Program-made: the position numbers and the translations under genes
The notes under the pieces: generated by a model
The model's database searches: none
The model's input: only the letters and a program-made list of their open reading frames with translations
What the model was told of the DNA's origin: nothing
Shown: one piece after another, positions 4,486 to 64,000 of the stretch
How positions within the stretch are numbered: position 1 is the first letter of the stretch
How the letters are laid out: every line of letters starts with the position of its first letter
From: Eledone cirrhosa
Taxonomy: Eukaryota
Direction of reading: 5' to 3'
DNA: 64,000 nt
NCBI GenBank assembly: GCA_964016885.1
Contig: OZ024744.1
Coordinates: 112,158,001 to 112,222,000 of the forward strand

Positions 4486-4987
4486 TAGATAGCCATCATG
4501 GTGTATATCTTCACTGAAGATTTGGTGGTGGTGTTGGTGGTGGTGGGGGGGGGGGGGGGGGGGGGGGGGAATAAGCAGATAGAAACAGGCATATTCAACA
4601 AGGCTAATGTTTGAGAGAATTTTGAAAAACAGCCATCCACTAAATGAGTAGAGGGAGCAAGATGAATTGTTCAAATAGGTAGCTAGATAGATAAAGTGGT
4701 TTATTTCGAAAATAAACACTTGGGAAAACAAATATATACAATAATAAAAATGATAGTAATAAATGGAAAATATCACTATAGCATCATAATTTATTTCATT
4801 ATATATATATATATATCAAGGATACTAATTTATAGTATGCTTCCATCAGATAAAATACAATATTTGATGTATAAGATAGTGACATACTCCCAAAAATAGA
4901 CCTCATACAGACAACATGCCTATTTTAGTTGACCCGTAACAGGTCTATTTTGTGGGGGTATGTCACTATCTTATACATCAAATATTG

Positions 4988-9562: not shown

Positions 9563-10094
9563 CCCCACCCCCCACCCCCGCCCATACTCTAAGAAACATA
9601 ATAGAATCATATTTTCAACAAGGAATTGATGAAATGAGGGAAACCCAATGAGATGTAAGGTGTAAGTCCTATTGTAATGTTACTGTAGCCCTAGGATAAG
9701 GTTAGAGATTAAAGGAGACAAAATGAGATAGAAGGGGTAGGGATGGTCCATCTAGAACACTAGGAGGCAGATTACTAACCATATAGCTCGAGGAAAGTGA
9801 TAATGTTGATGATAATGATGATCATGGTGGTGGTGGAATCAACCAAAATGGCATAGAATTTATTTTCGAGTCATGTTACACCAAAAAATAGACACACATA
9901 TATAAATATATATATATATGCATATACATATATAATATATAAGATTGAAATAGATAGAAGGCTAAACAATGCAAAATGGACTATAAGATGAGGTAATTAA
10001 AAGTAAGTTACATGGTAATCTTTTTTTTTTTTTTTTTTTTTTTTTTTTGTTCTTTCTTCTGACCAATATTTCGAGACCTAAAAGTCCCTTCTTT

Positions 10095-10229
10095 GGGGTT
10101 TGAGGAACTTTCAGGAGACAATGTTCCAATTTCCTCTCTTTGAAAAAGACTTCAAAAAATGTTAATCAAAATCTAATCCCAAAGAGAGGAAATTGAAACA
10201 TTATCCACTGAAAGTTCCTTAAACCCAAA
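10095..10229. repeat. imperfect inverted repeat, about 50-bp arms
   Basis: ggggtttgaggaactttcag...tcctctctttg versus caaagagaggaaattg...ctgaaagttccttaaaccc. Confidence 0.75.
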
Positions 10230-10291
10230 CTACAACATTTTATATCTATATGTATATATCTCTATATCAATATATATATATATATATATAT

Positions 10292-10470
10292 AACCATATA
10301 GACAATAACTCACCAGACTACTGGATACATAGGGTAGTAGAGTGGGTAATAGGAAAAAGAGTTAGGACTCCGACAGCTAAGCTCTGGCCATTTCGACAGC
10401 TAGATCCGAACTGTTGGGATCGAGCCGTCTAAGTGGCCAGAGCTCAGCCATCAGGCTTACTCTTTATCCT
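10292..10470 (-). mobile_element. hairpin element family C, copy 1
   Basis: Homologous to 10529-10729 and 47738-47938; internal palindrome; flanked by (TA)n. Confidence 0.75.
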
Positions 10471-10528
10471 ATATATATATATATACAAACACACATACTC
10501 ACAATATATATATATATATATATATATA

Positions 10529-10727
10529 GGAACCAGTAAGACCCCGACAGCTGAGCTCAAGCCGTTTCGACGGCTAATTCTGGACTAATTAGTCCAGAAT
10601 TAGCCGTCGAAACGGCTCGAACTCAGCTGTCGGGGTCTTACTGGTTCCTATTACCCACTCTACTACCTCAAGTATTGAGTACTTTGGTGCGTTATGGTCC
10701 ACCTGGTTCCTTACCACATTTCCTTCG

Positions 10728-22793: not shown

Positions 22794-23098
22794 AGAATTA
22801 AAATACTAGAGTGTGTTGGAGTTAAATACCCTCTTCATATTATAGAAATGACAGTAAAGGTATAGCTCAATGTAATGGAACAGAGCCGAAGAATTATAAA
22901 AAAATAAAGCAAAGAAGCCTTCAATACATCAAAAGTTTCGTCCTATTAAGGACTCATCAGGGCAAGTAAAGCTACAAGAAGCACTATCGGCCAATACAAG
23001 CCAAAATCTCAGAAGAATAGGGAGTATACATCTATTAAAGCTTAGGAAAGATATCAAGGAAAAGTTTGCTAAGATTAAGAGTGAGCAGTTACAAACAT
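22794..23098 (-). mobile_element. hammerhead-bearing element family G (copy with stem III deleted)
   Basis: Near-identical to 27263-27560; minus strand CTGATGA-gtcc-ttaata-ggac-GAAAC at 22935-22960. Confidence 0.75.
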
Positions 23099-23123
23099 AG
23101 TATATATATATATATATATATAC

Positions 23124-23380
23124 ATGGTGGCTGCCAACTCGTTTTCGAGTACGGCCACTACTTTATATCCATGTAGGAGAACCCCTACTGATGCGCTGAA
23201 AGAGTGTGACTTTTTAGTCCAGCCAGTGACTTGAAAACTCTGGTACAAACACTACACCTGTGACAATTATTAACACATAGTGCTGGGCCCATATGTATGT
23301 ATGTATGCAGCATCGGTAGGGGTTCTCCTACATGGATATAAAGTAGTGGCCGGACTCGCAAACGAGTTGGCAGCCTCCGT
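23124..23380 (-). mobile_element. 3' end of a LINE (probably RTE-type) with C-terminal C2H2 finger, plus a short inverted copy
   Basis: CSVCTRVFKSLAGLKSHTLSAH stop; 23308-23380 is an inverted repeat of 23127-23196; homologs at 43042-43130 and 43302-43600. Confidence 0.65.
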
Positions 23381-23587
23381 GTATATATATTATATGTATG
23401 TATATATATCAAAGCTCTTAAGAGTCAATGGTCATCCAAAATCACCGGGAGAGATGACCCCTTAACCTTTGTAAAGGCAGAATTCTAGGAGAAGGAAAAT
23501 TCTGATATATATATATATATATATACATATATACACACGAATATATATACACACAATCATACATATATATATCTATATATATGCACA

Positions 23588-23621
<34 letters not shown>

Positions 23622-23639
23622 TATATATATACATTACAT

Positions 23640-24057
23640 ATATTAGCAAATGGAAACTATATTTATAAAACCCTATTTATTTCATTATACATATTTCAAG
23701 GACACCAAGTCAAATTATGGTGTGCTTTCATCAGATAAAATATAATATAGATCAGTTTTATAAATAAATTTTGATGCAACCATTTCTGTTGGAAGCTTCA
23801 GAAATGGTCACATTCTTTAAGGGTATGTCAATATTTATTTATAAAACTGATCTATATTATATTTTATCTGATGAAAGCACACCATAATTTGACTTGGTGT
23901 CCTTGAAATATGTATAATAAAATAAATATGGTTTTATAAATATAGTTTCCATTTGTTAATATATCGTATTTTTACTCCAATAATTTGTTGAGTGCTTTAT
24001 ATCAGTTATAAAAATATTTGCTTGTTGTATCCCAACAATTTAAATAGAACTTTTACA
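23640..24057 (+). mobile_element. fold-back hammerhead element (family A/D)
   Basis: Arms 23640-23770 and 23832-23962 are inverted; 3' extension to 24057; flanked by (TA)n. Confidence 0.8.
23860..23924 (+). ncRNA. type I hammerhead ribozyme motif (mirror copy at 23678-23742, minus strand)
   Basis: tattttat-CTGATGA-aagcacacc/ggtgtcctt-GAAA-tatgta-TA-ataaaata; perfect 8-bp stem I. Confidence 0.82.
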
Positions 24058-24290
24058 TATATATATATATATATATATTTTCAATCACATATATTTTTAT
24101 TTGTTTGACCCGAATTACTTGGTCGTTTCTATGGCTGTGCGGATAATGGTTTAACCATCGTCTCAGTGTGTTTGGCCTTTAACGTATGTTGTAGCTCTGG
24201 TTCGTTAGAATTTATTGAGCACTTGCCACACATCTCGGAAGTTGTTTTTCGCTAATTTCCAATAGCCGAAATACGATTCTCGCTAACTTA

Positions 24291-24341
<51 letters not shown>

Positions 24342-24342
<1 letters not shown>

Positions 24343-24765
24343 GTAGGAGGTGAGTTTTATTGTAGTACAATAAAGCAATGCAGATATCGGATAAGAAGCA
24401 CTCTACAGTTTGTGGGACTGGAGTATGCATAATATAAGATCAAAAGATGGTTAAAGGAGTTCAATATATTTTATTATGCGCATTTCAAAAACAAACATCA
24501 TCAAACAATAATATTTGTGTTTTCATCAGATAAAACAGGAGAACATGATATGAAGGCTAAAAAAACACTTGTTGATAGTGCAGTTTTAAATCAACATATC
24601 AGATATGTTGATTTAAAACTGCACTATCAACAAGTGTTTTTTTAGCCTTCACATCATGTTCTCCTGTTTTATCTGATGAAAACACAAATATTATTGTTTG
24701 ATGATGTTTGTTTTTGAAATGCGCATAATAAAATATATTGAACTCCTTTAACCATCTTTTGATCT

Positions 24766-24773
<8 letters not shown>
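24342..24773 (-). mobile_element. palindromic hammerhead element family E
   Basis: 172-bp arms 24429-24600 and 24602-24773; extension 24342-24428; homolog at 41870-42298. Confidence 0.85.
24665..24735 (+). ncRNA. type I hammerhead ribozyme motif (mirror at 24467-24537, minus strand)
   Basis: tgttttat-CTGATGA-long stem II-GAAA-tgcgca-TA-ataaaata; palindromic stem III. Confidence 0.82.
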
Positions 24774-24814
<41 letters not shown>

Positions 24815-24928
24815 AGTATTGAAGTTTCCGTTGAAAATTGAAAAAGTCATAGGAGGAAGATTCAACCCCAGTACCGTGTGTAGATATCTATGTATATATA
24901 TATGTGTGCGTATATATATATATATATA

Positions 24929-25350
24929 TATTAATAAGAGGAATTCCAACTTTGTCTGATTTACTCGTTTTATTTACAATCCTTTAAAATATATATAATA
25001 TGGTATTATAATGAAATAGTATGATAGAATATTAAATTCTAAGTGTTAATTGAACAAGTACTTTCATGCTTTCGCAATCTTCAGGTTCATGATATGTGGT
25101 GACAGTCGAGTTTGCAATTTTCGAACAGTTGAAAATTGCAAACTCGACTGTCACCACATATCATGAACCTGAAGATTGCGAAAGCATGAAAGTACTTGTT
25201 CAATTAACACTTAGAATTTAATATTCTATCATACTATTTCATTATAATACCATATTATATATATTTTAAAGGATTGTAAATCAGACTAAGTTGGAATTTC
25301 TCTTATTAATATAATCTTCTATACACAATCATACACACCCATGTATTTTT
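24929..25350 (+). mobile_element. palindromic hammerhead element family F
   Basis: About 190-bp arms around a centre near 25126; flanked by (TA)n. Confidence 0.8.
25164..25202 (+). ncRNA. minimal type I hammerhead motif (mirror at 25051-25089, minus strand)
   Basis: tgaac-CTGAAGA-ttgc(gaaa)gcat-GAAA-gtac-TT-gttca. Confidence 0.78.
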
Positions 25351-25363
25351 ACCTATCTATATC

Positions 25364-25398
<35 letters not shown>

Positions 25399-25436
25399 AT
25401 AGATATATATTTGTATGTGTATATATATATAAATAT

Positions 25437-26310
25437 ATCCTAGGTGACCGAATTAGCAGCGGAGGTGGGTGTTCAGAAAGTACAATAACTAGGGTAAGTA
25501 CGGGATGGAAGAAGTTCAGGGAACTACTGCCACTGCTAGCTACAAAAGGCTTCTCCCTCAGAATGAAAGGCAGACTGTCTGATGCGTGTATCCGAACAGC
25601 AATGTTACAGGGTAGTGAGACCTGGGCGCTGAAGGTGGAAGACTTGCGTAGATTAGAGAGAAACGAAGCCTGCATGCTCCGATGGATGTGTAATAGTAAT
25701 ATACGCGACCAACAAAGCATAAATGAATTGAGAGAGAGACTGAGCATCAGAGGAATCAAATGCTGTGTGCAGGAGAGGCGGTTGCGCTGGTATGGACATA
25801 TGATGTGTATGAAGGATGACAGCTGCATAAAAAGGAGCAGAGCACTAGAAGTCAATGGAACCCGAGGAGTGAGGAGACCCAAGATGACCTGGGATGAGGT
25901 GATAAAAGCCGACTTTACCCAATTACATCTCTCAAAGGCAATGACACATGACCGTGACCTCTGGCGTCACGCAGTAATACAGAGTACCAGACCTCCCATG
26001 AAGCATATAGACAATATTCCCCCACCCCACCCACCGCAAGGTGGTTGTGGAGGTGTCACAACAAAAAAGCACCCAGCCCACACTGTAAAGTGGACGTGTA
26101 GGGGCCATGAAAAAGCACCCAGCACTCACTGTAAATGAGGTTGGTGTTAGGAAGGGCATCCAGCTGTAGAAATCAAGCCAAAATCAGTTCCTGTATGAGC
26201 AAGGCATAGTCAGCCGACCAGACACTGCCCACAACAGGCCAACTCGTCTAACCCATGCTAGCGTGGAAGGACGGACGTAAAACGGTGATGATGATGATGA
26301 TTATGATGAT
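25437..26310 (+). pseudogene. RTE LINE 3' fragment with 3' UTR and (ATG)n tail
   Basis: LGDRISSGGGCSE...[11 protein letters not shown]...GSETW...RRLRWYGH...RPKMTW. Confidence 0.9.
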
Positions 26311-26363
26311 ATATATATATATTTGTATGTGTATATATATATATATATATAGATATATATTTG

Positions 26364-26395
<32 letters not shown>

Positions 26396-26399
<4 letters not shown>

Positions 26400-27212
26400 A
26401 TAAAAACACTTGAGTGCATTAGAGTCTTGTACTGTCATTTCTCTAAGAGAAATGACAGTACAAGAGATAGCTCAATGTTATCAAACAGAGCCGAAAAAAT
26501 TATATAAATCAACAAAGGAGCCTTTAATACATTAAAAATCTTTATTCGCTGACAATGTTTCGTCCCAGTAATAAGGACTCTTCAGAGCAAGGAAAAGACA
26601 AAAAATATCAACGGCTAGAACAAGCCAAAATTCAGAAGAATAGAGAAATAGAAAAATAGAAATTTATATGTTACTTTATAAGATATAATATGCAGGTAAT
26701 ATAAAAACAGGATAAGGAGGCAAGATCTAGGATGTTGCGACATATTTAGATTTCAGGTAACTAAGAATGGATAAAAATTTATAATATTTATAACACACCC
26801 AGGAGAGACGTGTCAACCTAATAGGGTACATTGGTACATAAAAACTATAGGGCAAGAGAGCAAGCAAACATTAAAATAGCCACGTTAAAAGTACAATATA
26901 TGTCCAATGCTCGAAATACAACATAGTAATATAATCCGAGAAATAAGATATAAAAAATATAAATAATATACAATACAATGCAATATATAATACAGAAATC
27001 CTGTTTTTATATTACCTGCATATTATATCTTATAATGTAACATTTAAATTTATATTTTTCTATTTCTCTATTCTTCTGAATTTTGGCTTGTTCTAGCCGT
27101 TGATATTTTTTGTCTTTTCCTTGCTCTGAAGAGTCCTTATTACTGGGACGAAACATTGTCAGCGAATACAGATTTTTAATGTATTAAAGGCTTCTTTGTT
27201 GATTTATATAAT
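26396..27212 (-). mobile_element. fold-back hammerhead element family G
   Basis: 26498-26713 and 26998-27212 are inverted with a spacer of about 285 bp. Confidence 0.8.
27121..27165 (+). ncRNA. canonical-core minimal hammerhead with GUC site (mirror at 26546-26590, minus strand)
   Basis: ttgct-CTGAAGA-gtcc(ttattactg)ggac-GAAAC-att-GTC-agcga. Confidence 0.85.
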
Positions 27213-27229
27213 ATATATATATATATTTG

Positions 27230-27262
<33 letters not shown>

Positions 27263-27263
<1 letters not shown>

Positions 27264-27655
27264 AGAATTAAAATACTAGAGTGTGTTGGAGTTAAATACC
27301 CTCTTCATATTATAGAAATGACAGTAAAGGTATAGCTCAATGTAATTAAACAGAGCCGAAGAATTATGAAAATAAAGCAAAGAAGCCTTCAATACATCAA
27401 AAGTCTTTATTAGCCAACAATGTTTCGTCCTATTAAGGACTCATCGGGGCAAGTAAAGCTATAAGAAGCACTATCGGCCAATACAAGCCAAAAACTCAGA
27501 AGAATATGAAGTATACATAGATTAAAGCTTAGGGAAGATATCAAGTAAAGATTGCTAAGGAAGTGAATAACATTTTGAACCATATTACAAATATAGTACA
27601 ATGCAAAGACTAAAACTAAACACAAGTGGTGATATAAAACGAGAATTACAGTACT
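27263..27655 (-). mobile_element. family G copy, hammerhead core mutated to CCGATGA (27411-27452)
   Basis: Minus strand ttgcc-CCGATGA-gtcc..ggac-GAAAC-att-GTT-ggcta followed by aataaa. Confidence 0.75.
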
Positions 27656-28637: not shown

Positions 28638-31600
28638 ATGACCATGCTGTAAAATGGAGTGGTAGAGAGGGCCCTTGAGTCTAGTAAGACATCCTCTCTA
28701 GTGCTGGTGGCACAAATAAAAGCACCCAGTCCATGCTGTAAAGTGGCGCTGGTGTTAGGAAGGGCATCCAACCAGTGTATCAATGCCAAAAGCTTATCAG
28801 CACAGCAACAAAACAGCATAGAAAATATGAAGACGTCGCATCTCAGAGTTGCAACACTTAATGTTGGCACTCTCAGAGGTAGATCTGCTGAAATAGCGGA
28901 GATGCTGGAGAGAAGGCAGGTGGATGTGTGCTGCGTGCAAGAGGTGAGATGGAGAGGTGCCTCTGCGAGACTAGTCGTAGGCAAGCGTCTTAGCTATAAG
29001 CTATTCTGGGTAGGTAAGGATGATGGGTTAGGGGGAGTAGGCATTTTCCTGGCTGAGAAATGGATCAATAAGACAATAGAGGTAGTTCGAGTTAGTAATC
29101 GAATAATTAAGCTTAGATTAGTTGTAGGTAGGAGACTACTGACAATCATCTCGGTCTATGCTCCCCAAGCAGGCCTAGGCAAAGATGAGAAAGACTGCTT
29201 TTATGAGCAACTCTTGCAAACAACCACAATGACAGAGGACGGAGACATCGTTATGCTAGCAGGAGACTTCAATGGTCATGTTGGACAGCTCCAGGATGGT
29301 TACACTGGGGTACATGGTGGGCACGGTTATGGTTCAAGAAATGAAGAAGGAGTGAGACTTCTTGAATTTTGTGATGCAAGTACATTGACTATTTGCAACA
29401 CAAACTTCCAGAAACCTGCCAATCACCTAATAACCTACAAATCTGGTGAGCACATAAGCCAGATTGACTTCCTGCTAGTTAGGCAGCGGGACAGGCAGAT
29501 AGTGTCTAATACCAAGGCATACCCTGGGGAAGAATGTACCCCACAGCATAGGTTAGTTGTTAGTGATATCTCAGTAAGCAAGAGATGGAATGAGACATAT
29601 AGGAAGGTGTGGAGAAGAAAGGTCTGGAAGCTAAAAGACCTTTCACTAAAATTCAAATTTAGGAAAGCCCTTCAAGATGTATATGACGAAAAAGAAGACG
29701 ATTTAGAGACGTATGACATAGATAATAACTGGAAGCTCTTACGTGACAACTTGCTGCAGGCTACTGATGAAACCTGTGGCTGGAGCAGAGCTCCAACCAG
29801 ACAGAGAGTGACCTGGTGGTGGAACAGCACAGTAGATAAGGCTATTAGAGACAAAAGACTAGCATAGAAGGCTTGGAAAAAGGGTGGGAGTAGGGAAGAA
29901 TATACAGCCACTAAGAGAGAAGCTAGACGTCAGGTGTACTTAGCACGCAGGGAGGCAGAGAGTAGGAAGTTTGCCAATGTTCTGCGACGGGAAGATCAGA
30001 GGCGTGCGGTGTTCCACATTGCAAGGCAGTGTGTCAATGCAAATCAGCATGTCGTTGGTGATAAATGTGTCCGGGATGATGCCGGTGTACTTAGTGTCAC
30101 GAATGACCAGAAAAAGGAGGCCTGGAAATGTCATTATGAGAGACTGATGAATGTGGAGAACGAATGGGAGAGAGAGAAATTACCCTTGGTAGATCTGACA
30201 GAGGGACCAGCTATTGAGATTGACGAATATAGGGTCCAAGAGGCGATTAGGGAAATGAAAAATGGTAAGGCGGCCGGACCATCGGGAATAGTTGCTGAGA
30301 TGCTGAAGGCATCAGGGGACGTAGGCACTAAATTGGTTGCACGCATCATCAATCAGGCTATATATGGTGGTGTCATACCCAAAGACTGGTGCAGCAGTAT
30401 TCTCATAAATTGCTACAAAGGTAAAGGGGATGCTTTGGAGAGGAGCAATTATAGGGGTATAAAGCTGATAGATCAGGTTATGAAAGTGGCAGAAAGGATT
30501 TTAGCACAACTAATTAGAGAAAGGGTCAAACTAGATGAGATGCAGTTTGGTTTTGTGCTTGGGAAGAGTACAACAGATGCCCTCTTCTTGGTGAGACAAA
30601 TGCAAGAGAGGTTCTTAGAGAAGAATAAGCCACTATACTTAGCCTTTGTTGACCTAGAGAAGGCCTTTGATAGGGTAACCCGATCTGTCATCTGGTGGTC
30701 CCTAAGGAAGCTGGGTGTTGAGGAATGGCTTGTGAGGACAGTGCAAACTTTGTACAGAGCTACTCTCAGTAAAGTCAGGGTAGGAATGGAGTTTAGTGAG
30801 GAATTCCAGATACAAGTAGGAGTACATCAGGGTTCGGTCCTCAGCCCGCTCTTGTTCATTATAGTCCTCAAAGCCATAACAGAGGAGTTTAAGACTGGCT
30901 GTCCATGGGAACTTCTCTATGCTGACGATCTGGCTCTTATGGCAGAATCAGTAGAGGAGCTAGAGAATAAATTCCGGCTATGGAAACAGCAGTTGGAAGC
31001 AAGAGGACTGAGAGTAAATCTAGCTAAGACAAAAGTGTTGATGAGTAGAAAAGAGGACAAAACCCCGATTCCGTCAGGGAAATGGCCATGTTCGATATGC
31101 AGAAAAGGAACTGGCATAAATTCTATAAAATGCACACAATGCAGGTCCTGGGTACACAAGAGATGTAGCGGGATAGCAGGCAAACTAACAGGTAGGGAGA
31201 AATATGTATGCAGTAGATGTACAGGGAAATTAGACAGTAGAAGTCGCACTGATAGACACATTTTTCAATAGCGCTATAGAAGTGGTGGATAGTTTCCGGT
31301 ACCTAGGAGATCAGATTAGCATGGGAGGAGGGTGTTCCGAGGCCATAGTATCTAGAATAAGGACGAGTTGGAAGAAGTTTAGGGAGCTGCTTCCTCTGTT
31401 GACGAAGAAGGGTTTCTCCCTGCGTACGAAAGGCCGGTTGTATGATGCCTGTGTGAGGAGTGCGATGCTGCATGGTAGTGGGACATGGGCAGCAACCGCA
31501 GAGGATATGCGACGGCTGGAGAGAAATGAGGCAAGCATGCTCCGTTGGATGTGCAGTGTAAATGTGCGTGAACGACCCAACATAAATGTGTTGAGAGAGA

Positions 31601-31905
31601 AACTGTGTCTGAGAGGGATAGAATGTAGTGTACGGGAGAGGAGACTGACGTGGTATGGACATGTGATGCGCATGGAGGATGACCGATGGGTGAAGAAGTG
31701 CCAGGAAATGCCAGTTGAGGGAAGACGTGGTAGAGGTAGACCACGAAAAACATGGGCGGAGGTGGTGAGAACAGACCTCAGATCATTGAAGCTCACGACG
31801 GTGGAGATGACGAGGGACCGTGACGAGTGGAGAGATGCTGTGCTGAATAAGACCCGTCCCACCCTTGCAAGCAGGGAAAAGCGGACGTAAAATGATGATG
31901 ATGAT

Positions 31906-36552: not shown

Positions 36553-37124
36553 TAGTAATTAGATTCCCATCTGTTGTTTTGACATTTTTATAGAATATAT
36601 TATTGGTTATTTTTCTAAATCTATAGAGGGATTAGAGATAGTATAGATATGATAGAGGGATTAGAGATAGTATAGATATGCAAATAACCAATAATATATT
36701 CTATAAAAATGTCAAAACAACAGATGGGAATCTAATTACTCACTGCCACCAAAAATTCTCACTGCTATCAACAAACCACTCCCTCAACTATTCTTCTAAC
36801 AACTTCACCCCTCCCTCCTAATATTCTTTATAAAAACTAAATAGGTCCTCAGTAATATTATTCTGATGAAATGACAGTTGATAATAACATTGAAATATTG
36901 AATGTCTGCATAACTAATACTTTGTAGATAGCAGCTGTTTTAGGTTACGTAACTGTTATAGAAACACGTGTCAATAAATTCCTTTTAACTAACCTGTATC
37001 CATTCAAATCTTTCTATTTTTCTCCGGATTACTTTTGGAACTACAACTGGAACCGTCGAGCAAACTCTACGTGAGCTGTCCATCTACTGTGTGTAATATT
37101 TATATTACAACACTACGGAAAATA

Positions 37125-37128
<4 letters not shown>
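36553..37128 (+). mobile_element. hammerhead element family H with a 5' inverted arm
   Basis: 36555-36612 is inverted at 36682-36740; homolog at 56245-56722. Confidence 0.78.
36858..36977 (+). ncRNA. hammerhead with a large insertion in stem II
   Basis: ttatt-CTGATGA-a-atgacagttg...(about 70 nt)...taactgttat-a-GAAA-cacgtg-TC-aataa. Confidence 0.72.
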
Positions 37129-41838: not shown

Positions 41839-41869
41839 AATATATATATATATATAGATATAGATATAT

Positions 41870-42298
41870 ATATAAGATCGAAAGATGGTTAAAAGAGTTC
41901 CATGTATTTTATTATGCGCATTTCAAAAACAAATATCATCATGCAATAACATTTGTGTTTTCATCAGATAAAATAGGAAGACATGATATGAAGGTTAAAA
42001 AACACTCGTGGATAGTGCAGTTTTAAATCAACATATCTTGATATGTTGATTTAAAACTGCACTATCCACAAGTGTTTTTTAACCTTCATATCATGTCTTC
42101 CTATTTTATCTGATGAAAACACAAATGTTATTGCATGATGATATTTGTTTTTGAAATGCGCATAATAAAATGCATGGAACTCTTTTAACCATCTTTTGAT
42201 CTTATATATTATGTATACTCCAGTCCTACAAACTGTAGAGTGCTTCTTATCCGATATCTGCATTGCTTTATTGTACTACAATAAAACTCACCTCCTAC
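41870..42298 (+). mobile_element. palindromic hammerhead element family E, copy 2
   Basis: Arms around centre 42038-42039; hammerheads at 42102-42172 (+) and 41905-41975 (-); 3' extension 42210-42298. Confidence 0.85.
42102..42172 (+). ncRNA. type I hammerhead motif
   Basis: tattttat-CTGATGA-stem II-GAAA-tgcgca-TA-ataaaatg. Confidence 0.82.
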
Positions 42299-42728
42299 AT
42301 ATATACATACATATATATATACATACATACATATATATATACATACATATATATATACATACATATATATATACATACATATATATATACATACATATAT
42401 ACATACATATATACATACATACATACATATATATATACATACATACATATATATATACATACATATATATATACATACATATATATATATACATACATAT
42501 ATATATACATACATACATATATATATACATATATATATACATACATATATATATACATACATATATATGTACATACATATATATACATATATATATACAT
42601 ACATACATATATATATATACATACATACATATATATATACATATATATATACATACATACATATATACATATATATATACATACATACATATATACATAT
42701 ACATATATATATACATATATATATATAC

Positions 42729-43721: not shown

Positions 43722-43772
43722 AAAAAGAAAATTTTGAGCTACGTGGCTGAATACAATAATGGTAATCTGGGC

Positions 43773-43980
43773 TTTTCAAATATTAATAATAACATTCGAT
43801 TCGTTTGAAATTATGCAAACAAGCCTCAATTTTATAGCCATATCAGTAGAATGAACACTTCATTCTTGCTCTTGTGTTGGCATGCGAACAGAAGTGCAGA
43901 CATGGTTGTAAAATTGAGGCTTGTTTGTATAATTGCAAACGAATCAAATATTATTATTAATATTCGAAAAACTCTGATTA
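43773..43980. repeat. imperfect fold-back, about 80-bp arms, flanked by (TA)n
   Basis: aatattaataataacattcgattcgtttgaaattatgcaaacaagcctcaattt versus aaattgaggcttgtttgtataattgcaaacgaatcaaatattattattaatatt. Confidence 0.8.
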
Positions 43981-47737: not shown

Positions 47738-47935
47738 GGAAAAGACTCAGGACCCCGACAGCTGAGCTCCAGCCGTTTCGACAGCTAGATCTAAACTAAA
47801 TTTGGATCTAGCTGTTGAAACGGCTGGAGTTCAACCGTCGGGGTCCTGACTCTTCCTATTACCCACTCTACTACCCTAAGTATTGAGTACTCTGGTGCGT
47901 TATGGTCCACCTGGTATCTTACCAAAGGCTCTTTG

Positions 47936-49032: not shown

Positions 49033-49447
49033 TATATATATATATCAAAGTTATAAGAGTAAATTCAATCAAAAGTCTTGAAGAAGTAAGTGTGTATTAG
49101 TTTACTAGTAAACCAACAACATGTCAGTAATAATAGCAATCTATATAGTAATATGAACAATATCATAAAAGATACCCAGCATAATCGCGACAACCCTCCT
49201 CATTATGGAAAACTCCACATCCTAAAAGGACTAGATATATTTCCTGGTATAATCCCTCATTCTCTCGTAGCATAGCTTCTAACATCACTAAAAAGTTTTT
49301 CAACTTTATATGTAATAACTTCGCACCAATTCATAAGTACTATAAGTTATTTAACAAAAATAATGTTAAAATTTCTTTTTCTACTACCCCTAACCTTGCA
49401 GACCATATCGCTTTTAGTAACTATAGGAAATTATATAAACATAATGA

Positions 49448-49800
49448 TTTCTTTATTAACCACAAGGGTTTACATAAAGTAGACATTAAGGACAGTGCAG
49501 GACAATACAGGACGGTACAAATGGGCATTTCTGCGTGTAAAGAACAAAAACAGAGGATGTAACAAAAAAATAACAATGAAAAAATTCCCCAATAGGGGGG
49601 AGACTTCGGAGGGACATTTGTGGAGAAAGCCCAGTAAAAGGCCACAGTGACCCTGACCACCAAGGCAAGTGCCCTCTCCCAGTTTTCCACCTTTAATTTA
49701 CAGATACGTACTCAGAGTAGGCCCATTCACTCGGGCCATTCTTGCTTCTCTCACCCATCTTTCAACAAAATGCTGGGAAGAGAGCACTTCCCTCTCTACC
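49448..49800 (-). pseudogene. Tx1-like LINE 3' end
   Basis: VEREVLSSQHFVERWVREARMARVNGPTLSTYL resembles MEREVLYPSKFYKRWVNVAKMARVVGPSLYISL (7042-7144); aataaa tail. Confidence 0.8.
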
Positions 49801-50557
49801 CATAATGCCTGTGATAGTGATACTCTGCCTGTATCAAATGACCCTTTAAATACTAATAGTTCTAACTTAAGTATTACTTCTGGTAACTCCTCTCTCACTA
49901 TAACTTCAACAGACACTCGAACTAGTTCTAACCACCTAATGTAGTAACTCTAATGTCTCTAACTTAAATTGTAATTGTTGAATTCCCAGTAACTGCCATC
50001 TTGACGGTCAATGTATATTCAATAACTTAATATATAGATGCACTGTGACTACCCAAAGTAGTACTAAAACATACATTGGTGACACTGCATATTTTATATA
50101 GTGTTAGAGTATATTCTTTATAGGGCAGTGATATAATTCTAATAAGTAGTTATATATCTAGGTCACTTTATATCTTGGGTCAACACTAAATCAGGTTCTT
50201 AATCACCCATATGTATAATTAGATTACAGAGGAGTTTGATCCCAAACTTAACTTTTCCTTTTGACTAAACATAACACACACATTAGGTAAGCCCTTGTCT
50301 ATTAATAAAATATTACAATATATCATAAGTTTAACTTGTTCATTAAATATGAACATATAGACAATGTTATTCAATATTCCTTATCTAACCCCTTATTTTC
50401 CTATTTATATGATTTCCTCATTAACTAACATTTCTGAATTGATCAAGTCATATTAATAATTATAAATGAATTGACATTATATTATCCTGTCACCTCACTA
50501 CTGATAAATGATTTACACCACCTGTGATAATAGTCACTTCTTACACTATTATTTAGT

Positions 50558-55893: not shown

Positions 55894-56244
55894 TTTCTGA
55901 ATTTGTTTAGCAAGATTCTTTATCTGAAATCGTGTGTTGAAACCGATATTGTTATACTTTGGGAGGGTCATGTTGCCAATAAGAAACACACGCACCAGTT
56001 GCTTTCACTTCAATTTATTATATATTTATAAATTTATAAATTTACAAATTTACAAACTTATAAATTTCTGGTTGGTTGGTTGGTTCCACAACCAGATAGT
56101 TGTTTATATATAGTCATAGTCCTTTCGTCATACACTCTGTGACCTCTTCAGATATATATGTATAGGTTGAGGAGGGGTGGGAGTGGGGTGGGGAGGAGGT
56201 AGAGGGGCTATATGTATATATAAATATATATATACATTTTTTAT

Positions 56245-56722
56245 AGAAAGATTTGAATGGATACAGTTTAGTTGAAAGGAATTTATTGACACGTGTTTCT
56301 GTAACAGTTACATAACCTGAAAACAGCTGCTATCTACAAAAGTTTTAGTTATGCAGACATTCAATATTTCAATGTTATTATCAACTGTCATTTCATCAGA
56401 ATAATATTATTGAGAACCTATTTGGTTTTTATAGAGAATATTAGGAGGGAGGGGTGAAGTTGTTAGAAGAATAGTTGAGGGAGTGGTTTGTTGATAGCAG
56501 TGAGAATGTTTTGGTGGCAGTGAGTAATTAGATTCCCATCTGTTGTTTTAGAATATATTATTGGTTATTTTTCTAAATTTATAGAAGGATTAGAGATAGT
56601 AAAGATATGCGTGGTTGGTTTTGTGTTTGGAACTACAACTGGAACCGTCGAGCAAACTCTACGTGAGCTGTCAATCTACTGTGTGTAATATTTATATTAC
56701 AATACAACGGAAAATACTGTAT
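56245..56722 (-). mobile_element. family H copy 2 (hammerhead at 56283-56404 on minus strand; 3' terminus on plus strand)
   Basis: 56245-56550 is the reverse complement of 36712-37015; 56625-56722 matches 37034-37128 forward. Confidence 0.78.
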
Positions 56723-60452: not shown

Positions 60453-60691
60453 ACATATACATATTTTGTTTTGCAAGGTTTTTGATATGAAATCGTGTGT
60501 CGAATCAAATATTGTTATACTTGGGGAGGGTCATATTGTTATAATATTGCCAGAAATAATAACAGAACACACTCACTGTTTGGTTGGTTTTCGCTTCTGT
60601 ATCTTTTATATCTCCATAGTTAATTTATTTGGCAATCAATGTTTATCATTGATTGACCAGTGGTTAAAAATAGAGATATAAATATATATGT

Positions 60692-60745
60692 ATAGTCTAA
60701 CAAAGTTCTTCCGTTGCACATCTGCGACATCATCAGTGATACTAT
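60692..60745 (-). ncRNA. degenerate hammerhead-like motif downstream of the Penelope ORF (homolog at 11358-11410, plus strand)
   Basis: agtatca-CTGATGA-tgtcgc(agat)gtgcaac-GGAA-gaactttg; homolog agtatcaCTGATGtcacac(aggt)gtgtgatGAAAgaactttg. Confidence 0.5.
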
Positions 60746-61034
60746 TATGTTTCCTTCCGTTGTATTGTATGTCTACGCCATATTATTTTATTTATTTATT
60801 TATTTATTCTTGTCTCTGTCTCTGTGCATATATTTGCGTGTGTGTATAATGTTTGGTGTGTGTGTTCGCGTTTGGGTGACTGTGTTTTTGTTTTTGTATT
60901 CTATCTTAGTTTACTAGTGTGTGTGTTTATATGTGTTTCTTGTTATTGTACTTGTGTATATATTTATTTATTTATTTATTTATATTTCCCTTAAGTCAGT
61001 ATTGTTTGTTTGGGTATGGTTGTTGTTGTTGTTA

Positions 61035-62290
61035 TTCCATTCGTTCTTACTGTTTAACTTTGGTCTTCTTAGTTCTATCTCAGTTGCTTCTCTGATTTGC
61101 CTACCTGTTGAGTCATTTCTATGTTTAGTTAGTATTTTAATTTCTATGTTGTCTATATTACCATCATGTCTTTGTCTGGCGTGTTTGTATAGTACTGAAC
61201 CGTTTTTTTGTCTTTTTAGTTCCCCCAGTGTTGGTCTATTTGTTCCCCTATGCTTCGAGCTGTCTCACCTATGTATGTCGTTGTCATGTTTCTGCAAGTA
61301 CCCTCTGTAGATCTTATGCTATAGACTACATTTCTAGTTTTACAGTTTATCTGGGGGTTCATTTTACATATAACACATTTCTTATTTGTACAGTGGGTTT
61401 TCTTAAAGGGGTGTTTGCTATTCAGGGATTTTATGGTAGTTACTGGCTTTTCTACCACCTTAATCTTTAGATGGGTCTTTCTTAGGGCCTTTCTACATTG
61501 CTTAGCTAATTCCCCCCAGGGGTAGCATCCACGAACATGACACTCTGGTATCTCTGGTTGTCGTACCATGAAGTGGCTTTCCCTATCTTATGTTTAGTCC
61601 TATCTAAGCTATTCCATGATTTACTCCTGTATAATGGGCAAATTTCTTTCATGTCCAGTTCTATGAGGGTCTTATATTTCTCCGTGGCTCCTTTATATAC
61701 TCTGATTCTGTCTCTTTGGTTGTAGCCAGAGAACTGCATACAGTTGATGAAGTGTTGGATGTGTCTTTCCTTTTCAGTTGGGTCACACATGTGGGACACA
61801 TTCTTCATCACTCTTACCAAGTCTGCGATCAGAATATTAAACTTAGCACTATTGGACATTGCTGAGTTTTTGAGTATCAGGTATTTGGAGGCCATGGGTT
61901 TAGCATAGTGTGAGTGGAGAATTTGGTCCCTCTCGTCTATAGTGCTTAACCAGAGTTCCATATCTAATACAGGTAGTCTATTGTTAGGGTATTTGGAAGG
62001 GTAGTCAATAGTTACAGTTATACTCTGGGGTTACAGCTATACTATGGGGTTAGCTATCTGCTGGATGCTCTCCATTGTGCTATCTTCTAAATCATGTTTA
62101 TTAGTACTCTCTTGTGAGGGTGTTCTTATTACTATATTGATATTGTCTACGTAACGAGAGTACATGATGAGGTCTATGGAGCTCTCTTTAAGGAGTGCTC
62201 TGAGTCTCCTATCCCACCATACAATAAATAGATTGGCAACATCGCCAGCTATGCTGACACCAATGGCTGCTCCCTCATTCTGGGTGTATA
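61035..62290 (-). pseudogene. Penelope-like element: RT plus Cys-rich linker plus GIY-YIG endonuclease
   Basis: Minus strand QNEGAAIGVSIAGDVANLF, SRYVDNINI, LPVLDMELW, HCTNKKCVICK...INCKTRNVVYSI...YIGETARS. Confidence 0.85.
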
Positions 62291-62297
62291 TATAACC

Positions 62298-64000
62298 ATC
62301 CTCTCGTACGCAGGGAGAAACCTGGCTTTGTCAACAGAGGAAGCAGCTCCCTAAACTTCTTCCAACGTGTCCTTATTCTAGATACTATGGCCTCGGAACC
62401 CCCCCCCCCCCCCCCCTTCCATGCTAATCTGATCACCTAGGTACTGGAAGCTATCAACCACTTTTATAGAACCCGCCTGTATTGGAAAAATGTGTCTATC
62501 ACTGCTATTACTACTGCTAACTTTCCCTGTACATCTACTGGATACATAGTTTTCCCTACCTGTTAGTTTGCCTGCTATCCCACATCATCTCTTGTGTACC
62601 CAAGATCTGCATTGCGTACATTTTATGAAATTTATGCCATTTCCCCGATGGAATCAGAGTATTGTCCTCTCTTCTACTTATCAACACTTTTGTTTTAGCT
62701 AGGTTCACTCTCAGGCCTCTTGATTCCAACTGCTGTTTCCATAGCCAGAATTTATTCTCTAGCTCCTCTACTGATTCTGATAGAGAAGTTCCCATGGGCA
62801 GCCAGTCTTAAACTCCTCTGTTATGGCTTGGGGGACTATAATGAACAAGAGCAGGCTGAGGACTGGAATTCTTCATCTGGAATTCTTCACTAAACTCCAT
62901 TCCTATTCTCACTTTGCTGATAGCACCCCTGTACATAGCTTACACTGTCCTCACAAGCCATTCCTCTACACCTAGTTTCCTTAGGGACCACCAGATTACA
63001 GATCGAGGTACCCTATCAAAGGTCTTCTCTAGGTCAACAAAAGCTAAGTATAGTGGCTTATTCTTCTTTAAGATCTTCTCTGGTAGTTGTCTCACTAAGA
63101 AGAGGGCATCTGTTGTACTTTTCCCATGCACAAAACCAAACTGCATCTCATCTAATTTGACCCTTTCTCTAATCAGTTGCACTAATATTCTCTCTGCCAC
63201 TTTTATAACCTAATCCATCAGTTTTATGCCCCTATAATTGCTCCTCTGTAGAGCATCCCCTTTACCTTTGTAGCAATTTATGAGAATACTGCTGCACCAG
63301 TATTTGGGTATGACACCACCATATATAGCTTGATTGATGATGCGTGCAACTAGTTTAGTGCCTACATCGCCTGATGCCTTTAGTATCTCAGCAACTATCC
63401 CTGACGGTCCAGCAACCTTACCATTTTTCATTTCCTTAATTGTCTCTTGTACCCTATATTCGTCAATCTCAATAGCTGGTCCCTCTGTCGGATCTACTGG
63501 GGGTTATTTCTCTCTCTCCCATTCATTCTCCACATTCATCAGTCTCTCATAATGACATTTCCAGGCCTCCTTTTTTCTTATCATTCGTGACATTGTGTAC
63601 ACCGGCATCATTCCAGACACACTTATCTCCAACTATATCCTGATTTGCATTGACACACTGCCTTGCAATGCAGAACACCGCACATCTCTGATCTTCCCAT
63701 CGCAGAACATTGGCAAATCTCCTTCTCTCAGCCTTCCTACGTGCTAAGTGCACCTGATGTCTAGCTTCTCTCTCAGCAGCTGTGAATCCTTCTCTACTCC
63801 CACCCCTTTTCCAAGCCTTCCATGCTAGTCTTTTGTCTCTAATGGCCCTATCTACCGTGCTGTTCCACCATGAGGTCACTCTCTGTCTGGTTGAAGTTCT
63901 GTCTCAACCACAAGTTTCTTCAGTAGCCTGCAGCAAGTTGTCACAAGAAATTCCAGTTATCATCTATGTCATATGATTCTAAATCGTCTTCTTTTTCATC
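62298..64000 (-). pseudogene. RTE LINE, same family as 28638-31906, degraded, runs off the window
   Basis: Near-identical peptides (LDEMQFGFV, FVDLEKTFDRV, WWNSTVD) with stops and frameshifts. Confidence 0.92.

What the first reader, a model, noticed from the sequence alone, without database searches (positions are those of the whole stretch)
23640..27655. Dense cluster of non-coding fold-back elements carrying a hammerhead ribozyme on each arm, inserted in (TA)n
Seen: within 4 kb there are four inverted-repeat elements (23640-24057, 24342-24773, 24929-25350, 26396-27212). Each places a type I hammerhead (stem I-CUGANGA-stem II-GAAA-short stem III-UH-stem I') on both strands, pointing outward. 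One arm is extended by a unique 3' tail, and the ends abut (TA)n. The same design recurs at 4749, 36553, 41870, 45950 and 56245, giving more than 15 hammerhead motifs from at least 6 sequence-distinct types. Established: Penelope-like elements carry minimal hammerheads in their pseudo-LTRs, often with an inverted 5' copy, and retrozymes are non-autonomous hammerhead retroelements. Inference: this is a diverse system of ORF-less, hairpin-shaped, ribozyme-processed retroelements targeted to TA microsatellites. Transcription in either direction would give a self-cleaving RNA that can also form long dsRNA.
Basis: partly seen in the sequence, partly recalled or inferred. Interest (0 to 1): 0.9.

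Follow-up and report, generated by a model that had tools for sequence, protein, structure and literature searches.

The report
Fold-back ends of Penelope-like retroelements
The four hairpins are real, but they are short, folded-back end pieces of protein-coding Penelope-like jumping genes rather than a new kind of element; their fixed ends likely record how the enzyme copies one RNA from two starting points onto both DNA strands.

Summary
In detail: four fold-backs at 23638-27212, each with an outward type I hammerhead on both arms (12 motifs in the window against 0.02 in shuffles). The interpretation mostly does not. Each hairpin is 95-99% identical to the terminal repeat (pLTR) of a coding Penelope-like element (PLE) in the same genome. 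Three families have Hydra-clade motifs and one has Neptune-type motifs. Inverted truncated copies, tails, (TA)n targets and opposed hammerhead pairs are published PLE features (PMC8557442, PMC4209133), and this scan noted the same pattern earlier in two shark-type genomes. Short and long copies interleave on a tree, so no separate ORF-less lineage is seen. What this genome adds is mechanism. 72 of 83 inverted pairs join one short end to one tailed end. In three families the arms stop at one fixed 5' base, in family B often with an extra G. This suggests two-site internal priming on both target strands, running off a capped RNA end. No RNA data tested it.

The parts
23638..24057 (.). E1: fold-back of family A pLTR (short arm left, tailed arm right); hammerhead cores 23734(-) and 23868(+), predicted cuts after 23686 and 23916
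   Evidence: 95-96.5% to L141; family A pLTR-broken ORF-pLTR in L201
24078..24290 (.). another dispersed repeat between two (TA)n tracts, no hammerhead found; not identified
24341..24778 (.). E2: fold-back of family B pLTR (tailed arm left, short arm right); both arms start 70 nt before the core with an extra G (24600 on -, 24602 on +); cores 24529(-) and 24673(+), predicted cuts after 24475 and 24727
   Evidence: 96.5% to the pLTR of L032 (821-aa ORF)
24929..25350 (.). E3: fold-back of family C pLTR (short arm left, tailed arm right); cores 25084(-) and 25169(+), predicted cuts after 25056 and 25197
   Evidence: 99% to L144/L148 (ORF1 476 aa + ORF2 775 aa with RVT_1 and GIY-YIG)
25439..26308 (+). 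3' fragment of an RTE-like LINE (label from my reading of the translation), unrelated to the hairpins
26396..27212 (.). E4: asymmetric fold-back of a D-related subfamily (tailed arm left and continuing through the 284-nt spacer; short arm right, starting 128 nt before the core); cores 26585(-) and 27126(+)
   Evidence: arms 94-96% to L287, where the pLTR is followed by broken PLE ORF pieces 69-85% like the family D protein
27264..27655 (-). E5: single tailed arm of family D, core mutated (27447); a second such arm lies at 22794-23100
41868..42300 (.). second family B fold-back, same stop and extra G on both arms, different junction letters

Best explanation
The hairpins are paired, oppositely oriented terminal-repeat (pLTR) fragments of four coding Penelope-like retroelement families, each likely made in one insertion event and likely dead on arrival. 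Shown: every family has two fixed 3' ends on (TA)n (B +108/+191, A +100/+192, C +158/+219, D +85/+184, counted from the ribozyme core). An insertion almost always has one of each. In A, B and C a third to over half of the arms stop at one fixed 5' base. Inferred: the element's RT-GIY-YIG protein cuts both strands of a (TA)n tract and primes two cDNAs at two internal sites of an uncleaved transcript. On a linear RNA that starts inside the pLTR, both cDNAs run off the capped 5' end after roughly 180-280 nt, often gaining a C opposite the cap, and repair joins the two ends head to head. That gives the hairpin with outward ribozymes and one tail. Long copies run past this point, so they need a template with sequence upstream of it: a ribozyme-made circle, a tandem read-through RNA or a template jump. 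The hammerheads in the hairpins would then be passengers.
For: Parents with ORFs: B L031/L032/L044, C L144/L145/L148, D L150/L154, A L201, E4 subfamily L287. Inverted pairs run from about 100 bp to 5 kb, and some enclose the ORF. End pairing: 72 short+tail, 7 short+short, 1 tail+tail, 3 running on into the ORF, of 83 pairs (P 3e-14 for 72 of 80). The short-ended arm is the longer one in 6 of 13 long C/D pairs; self-copying of a single cDNA cannot give that. Fixed stop, counted by eye in the first 100 listed rows (all contig C1): B 99 of 100 at -70 to -72 (whose filter removes read-through copies) and 26 stop/73 through/1 other; C 43/56/1 at -44/-43; A 35/65/0 at -88 to -86. Each stop is an A after a pyrimidine. 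In B, 14 of 26 junction inserts end in G against 4 G in the other 59 insert letters; the parent has C there. Junction letters differ among 19 short B pairs. Stop and read-through arms are mixed on the tree: 19 changes, shuffled mean 21.5, 80 of 500 as low, 5 identical sets span both. Published parallels: two internal RT start sites, cleavage and extension of both strands, uncleaved RNA as main substrate (PMC11167929); start site inside the pLTR (PMC8557442; PMC2377424); untemplated 5' G from caps in L1 (PMC9341517).
Against: No RNA evidence for the start site: both RNA runs were contigs that covered only GA repeats and one 168-nt ORF piece. Family C shows C more often than G next to its stop, and family D has no fixed stop. 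B's stop sits on a CATATG palindrome that could favour joining by itself; 3 of the 14 G cases could be the partner arm's templated base. A's extra G is only 7 of 17 by eye. E1 and E3 end a few to 20 nt short of their family's stop. The tree rests on 158 columns with 7 of 55 branches well supported, and arms of one insertion are not independent. Only 5 full-length A/B/C copies were checked for the 5' pLTR start, none at the stop.
Confidence: 0.72

Rival explanations
1. Same PLE origin, but the fixed stop is a structural pause or a microhomology hot spot, not a capped RNA end, and the second arm arises when one cDNA folds back on itself or switches template.
For: CATATG palindrome at the B stop; 11 perfect-palindrome junctions among 100 rows; arms of one insertion are more alike than arms of different insertions (B 0.8 against 4.8 differences); no G excess in C.
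Against: Extra G in B; stops at a pyrimidine-A step in three families; pairs in which the short-ended arm is longer than the tailed arm (6 of 13) need two priming events.
Confidence: 0.17
2. The hairpins are also templates: the promoter inside the pLTR transcribes the tailed arm outward, and the family's protein copies that RNA in trans, as for a SINE or a non-autonomous PLE.
For: About 58% of 12,418 B arms stop at -70 (estimate). Daughters made this way would get fresh junctions, so junction variety does not exclude it. Non-autonomous PLE derivatives are known (MRC1 in PMC8557442; retrozymes in bioRxiv 10.64898/2026.07.22.740005). Some clades of the tree are rich in stop arms.
Against: No separation on the tree. 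The arms end at the priming site, whereas the anole element needs RNA downstream of its start sites (first 172 nt of the ORF, starts at 111-118; PMC11167929). A similar downstream motif follows the tail in A, B and D parents and is absent from the hairpins (by eye).
Confidence: 0.09
3. One reading: independent ORF-less hairpin elements that move as whole hairpins.
For: High copy number of short inverted pairs; similar sizes within a family.
Against: 95-99% identity to pLTRs of coding PLEs; a continuum of spacer lengths up to full ORFs; junctions differ between copies; the two ends are unequal.
Confidence: 0.02

Closest known systems
Complex insertions of endonuclease-positive Penelope-like elements: pLTR, inverted 5'-truncated copy and tail (PMC8557442, Fig. 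2 legend and text)
   Same: Partial tandems, an inverted truncated copy, a tail at one end, a hammerhead in the pLTR, (TA)n targets.
   Different: Tails here are about 60-100 nt, not 30-40. The one-short/one-tail pairing and the fixed 5' stop with an extra G did not appear in the passages read or in searches.
Dual minimal hammerheads 100-700 bp apart on opposite strands in Schistosoma mansoni PLEs (PMC4209133)
   Same: Opposed pairs at the same distances, read by the authors as related to truncated PLEs; palindromic helix III.
   Different: Here the motifs have a 4-8-nt helix III insert, and parents are identified for each of the four families.
Hydra clade PLEs (PMC8557442, section 11)
   Same: Families A, B, D: DKT, CxCX5C linker; B and D: CxxC and CxH near the end, no cysteines between the GIY and YIG halves; (TA)n targets; hammerheads.
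   Different: Units are 3.9-4.7 kb against 'generally <3 kb'; thousands of copies; RW(T/I) where RWK is described; no tree against reference proteins.
Neptune/Nematis-type PLEs
   Same: Family C: GLKF, DKG, CX4CxxC linker, CxxC before YVG, two histidines; an overlapping upstream ORF1.
   Different: Neptune and Nematis were not told apart; frameshift not tested.
Poseidon element of the green anole, in vitro (PMC11167929)
   Same: Two internal RT start sites that bound the tail, both strands cut and extended, AT-rich target, hammerhead cleavage not needed.
   Different: There the start sites lie inside the ORF and close together; here they lie in the 5' leader, 60-100 nt apart. Use of both sites in one insertion was not shown there.
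Non-LTR retrozymes (bioRxiv 10.64898/2026.07.22.740005, first fifth read)
   Same: Type I hammerheads related to pLTRs, no ORF in the unit.
   Different: Retrozymes are head-to-tail tandem units with two same-strand ribozymes; these are head-to-head pairs.

Membership tests
EN+ Penelope-like element | ORF with RT and C-terminal GIY-YIG between direct pLTRs | tested here: met
   In parent copies, not in the hairpins. C: RVT_1 E 3e-6 (27.6 bits, below its 29.6 cut-off) and GIY-YIG E 3e-6; Pfam found nothing in the other 11 of 12 frames. B and D have YRDD and Y[FI]GST and are 44% identical; B matches C weakly, E 3e-5. pLTR spacings 3.3-4.8 kb.
EN+ Penelope-like element | Hammerhead in the pLTR | tested here: met
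EN+ Penelope-like element | Inverted 5'-truncated copy and one-sided tail | tested here: met
   L031, L144, L145, L149; 72 of 83 pairs
Hydra clade (families A, B, D) | DKT, CxCX5C linker, no CCHH, CxxC/CxH | tested here: met
   B and D; DKT and CxCX5C for A
Hydra clade (families A, B, D) | RWK motif; length under 3 kb | tested here: inconclusive
   B reads RW(T/I); units are 3.9-4.7 kb
Hydra clade (families A, B, D) | RT phylogeny with reference Hydra proteins | not tested
   No reference proteins fetched; supplements of PMC8557442 not opened
Neptune/Nematis type (family C) | CX2-5CxxC linker and CCHH endonuclease | tested here: met
Neptune/Nematis type (family C) | RT phylogeny | not tested
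   No reference set fetched
Type I hammerhead | Core and three helices with covariation | tested here: met
   47 motifs in 464 kb, 20 different inner helix I pairings, 41 of 47 with a fully self-complementary helix III insert (the descriptor itself demands some pairing)
Type I hammerhead | Self-cleavage | not testable with these tools
   needs an in vitro assay
Non-LTR retrozyme | Head-to-tail units with two same-strand ribozymes and no coding parent needed in the unit | tested here: not met
   Motifs are on opposite strands; no such tandem array in the finding
Non-autonomous lineage (SINE- or MITE-like) | Copies share one junction and form their own clade | tested here: not met
   Family B only:

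The most novel reading that the evidence does not exclude
The fixed-length hairpins are fossils of a 'strong-stop' step in PLE replication. A dimeric RT-endonuclease primes both target strands at two internal sites near the 5' end of the capped RNA. Hammerhead cleavage and circularisation is the switch that lets the same enzyme copy the whole unit instead of making dead hairpins of about 300-450 bp. That would explain inverted pLTRs, one-sided tails, variable pLTR length and the purpose of the ribozyme in one model.
Probability: 0.35. Interest if true: 0.68.

Novelty: new member of a known kind. Interest (0 to 1): 0.4.

Why it matters
As a class of element this is known. Its value is as evidence on an open question: PMC8557442 names the formation of tandem/inverted structures and microsatellite bias as unexplained, and the role of the PLE hammerhead as unclear. 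These young, high-copy families (exact motif counts 14,746, 5,085, 5,712 and 2,904) give exact, testable coordinates for two priming sites and a likely RNA start, and B has an unbroken 821-aa frame. Thousands of such hairpins could also act as outward promoters or as dsRNA sources in read-through transcripts (inference), and repeat annotators may mislabel them as MITEs or miRNA precursors (sub-threshold miRNA hits).

Tried and rejected
DNA search of the own genome with E2 found no candidates; the tool skips common words, so this says nothing. Rfam gave no hammerhead at threshold. Pfam missed the A, B and D proteins. The first arm-length test was invalid for family B because the reference held its own inverted arm (13 C/D rows kept, 14 B rows dropped); the repeat was readable for about half of 13 B loci and showed either arm longer. 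Upstream extents of -137 and -164 (B) and -71 to -117 (D) are mostly breaks against the reference, not true ends. The filter letter removed read-through copies; one search supplied them. An exact E4 motif occurs only in the window; a looser word found 108 places and the parent. Sequencing runs: two RNA contig sets with share 0.09 covered almost nothing, so expression is neither shown nor excluded; two runs of unrecorded kind cover the element. Target-site duplications cannot be read inside (TA)n. The paper on dimer cleavage (PMC5785218) is not held, so it is known to me only through the review PMC6765202. No protein homolog search, fold or reference phylogeny was run. The host was not identified; I searched an Octopus repeat paper because the window recalled octopus DNA, and it has no 'hammerhead', 'ribozyme', 'hairpin' or 'palindrom' in its main text (PMC13282606).
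Full report
Observation. The four inverted repeats are present at the stated places, with arms 97-99% complementary. A hammerhead descriptor finds an outward-reading type I motif on each of the eight arms, 12 in the window against 0.02 in shuffles. In 464 kb around the window there are 47 motifs with 20 different inner helix I pairings, and 41 have a fully self-complementary helix III insert. That is the dimer-type architecture described for PLE ribozymes (PMC4209133, parts 1-2 of 4 read). The cluster is a pile-up in (TA)n: 15 tracts in 4.2 kb, with other repeats in between. Of the five extra sites named, only 41870 and a decayed 4749 share the design.

Origin. Exact motif searches gave 14,746 (B, E2), 5,085 (A, E1), 5,712 (C, E3) and 2,904 (D) places. 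Opposed pairs lie about 100 bp to 5 kb apart, and same-strand pairs 3.3-4.8 kb apart. Forty long loci chosen for such spacings contain ORFs. L031 is an inverted pLTR, a pLTR, a 738-aa frame and a pLTR. L032 has 821 aa, L154 862 aa, and L148 has 476 + 775 aa with RVT_1 and GIY-YIG hits (1 of 12 frames hit Pfam). E2 is 96.5% identical to the L032 repeat, E3 99% to L144/L148 and E1 95-96.5% to L141. Family A has a pLTR-broken ORF-pLTR copy in L201. E4 is only 77-80% like family D, but its own subfamily has such a copy in L287 at 94-96%. B and D, and A where readable, carry the Hydra-clade motifs of PMC8557442 section 11, and C carries Neptune/Nematis-type motifs. No tree with reference proteins was made.

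Known status. PMC8557442 (introduction, section 11 and passages read) describes an inverted 5'-truncated copy, a one-sided tail and (TA)n targets. PMC4209133 reports hammerhead pairs 100-700 bp apart on opposite strands, related to truncated PLEs. Two earlier notes of this scan reached the same filing on shark-type DNA; I stated my reading before seeing them and did not check their data.

Ends. Each family has two fixed 3' ends. The tail is simply the next stretch of the parent's 5' leader. 154 of 181 arm ends fall on these sites, and 120 of the 154 abut (TA)4 against 6.35% at random. Of 83 inverted pairs, 72 have one end of each type, 7 are short+short (two of these, E4 and 4749, are diverged copies whose tail word was probably missed), 1 is tail+tail and 3 run on into the ORF. 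In long C/D pairs the short-ended arm is longer in 6 of 13 and the tailed arm in 7. One cDNA copying itself cannot give a tailed short arm with a longer untailed arm, so two priming events are needed (inference). This matches the anole Poseidon protein, which cuts and extends both strands, starts at two internal sites that bound the tail, is predicted to be a dimer, and uses uncleaved RNA (PMC11167929, parts 1-2 of 4 read).

Fixed 5' stop. I counted the first 100 listed rows of four searches by eye; all lie on contig C1. B: 99 of 100 rows without the parent's letter at -85 end at -70 to -72 (5,480 places); among rows with it, 73 read through, 26 stop and 1 ends near -76 (6,938 places). That gives about 58% of arms stopping at one spot. 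C: 43 stop at -44/-43, 56 read through, 1 ends near -49. A: 35 stop at -88 to -86 and 65 read through. D ends are scattered from about -20 to beyond -1,400, and E4 is of this kind. Each stop is an A after a pyrimidine, the usual initiator step. In B, 14 of 26 unexplained junction inserts end in G next to -70, against 4 G in the other 59 insert letters; three of the 14 are ambiguous. All four window B arms have this G. An untemplated 5' G is attributed to cap copying in L1 (PMC9341517, passages), and PLE transcription starts inside the pLTR (PMC2377424, passages; PMC8557442). Against this, C shows no G excess, A's is 7 of 17, and B's stop lies on a short palindrome.

Separate lineage? Junction letters differ among B hairpins. 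On a tree of 83 arms (51 stop, 32 read-through; arms ending before -70 left out) the label needs 19 changes against a shuffled mean of 21.5, and five sets of identical rows hold both classes. The tree is weakly resolved, so short-term re-copying of hairpin arms is not excluded. The arms lack the sequence downstream of the priming site that the anole protein needs, which argues against it.

Long copies. In eight copies with two pLTRs the 5' repeat began at -12 (with an inversion), -52, -137, -137, -579, -698, -886 and -900; none of the five A/B/C copies began at the fixed stop. Such copies need a template that continues upstream of the start: a circle, as proposed in PMC4209133 and reviewed in PMC6765202 (passages), or a tandem read-through RNA. 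This step is inferred only.

Whole elements fold at -213 to -404 kcal/mol, and single ribozymes at -5 to -11. A read-through RNA would be a long hairpin with the ribozyme buried. An RNA from the central start would hold one arm only. No RNA data bear on this.

Literature limits. Searches found no paper stating the end pairing or the cap-stop for PLEs. The library lacks most subscription papers, including early Penelope work, and I opened no supplements; those of PMC8557442 and PMC11167929 may bear on it.

Verdict. A real feature, of a known kind, with new families. Confidence that the hairpins are PLE terminal-repeat fragments is about 0.97; for the two-site, cap-stop mechanism about 0.7; for the ribozyme-switch extension about 0.35. 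Interest 0.4.

Noticed in passing
L148:717-9400 (G000:C1:21871300-21881200): Two family C copies, each with unbroken 476-aa and 775-aa frames, lie head to head as an 8.4-kb palindrome: the full-length version of the hairpin.
   Followed up: partly
L148:5200-8861: Family C ORF1 overlaps the start of the RT frame near a run of T, a possible frameshift site; ORF1 has no Pfam hit.
   Followed up: no
window 10093-10716, 23123-23381, 43765-43978, 47742-47924: Further fold-backs in (TA)n without a canonical hammerhead core; possibly ends of other PLE families.
   Followed up: no
window 60540-62300 (-): Decayed PLE 3' part with RT-end and GIY-YIG-like frames and a degenerate hammerhead core at 60736.
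   Followed up: partly
window 49185-50090 (+): Decayed Hydra-like PLE fragment, matched by the B and D proteins.
   Followed up: partly
window 36553-37127 and 56243-56719; L290: Rare family E (3 exact motif places in the genome, 2 in this window); the third place lies downstream of PLE ORF pieces.
   Followed up: partly
window 58325 (+); 464-kb neighbourhood: A hammerhead type with a 14-nt, non-palindromic helix III (4 of 47 motifs) that may work as a monomer.
   Followed up: no
L044, L150, L201, just after the tail end: Families A, B and D share a short motif with a possible stem-loop directly after the second priming site; a candidate protein-binding element (by eye, folds).
   Followed up: partly
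window 26425-26465: A 41-nt perfect palindrome inside the E4 tail, apparently a local rearrangement.
   Followed up: no
window 28653-31890 (+): Nearly full RTE-like LINE with endonuclease and RT frames broken by stops, followed by 4 kb of (TA)n.
   Followed up: no
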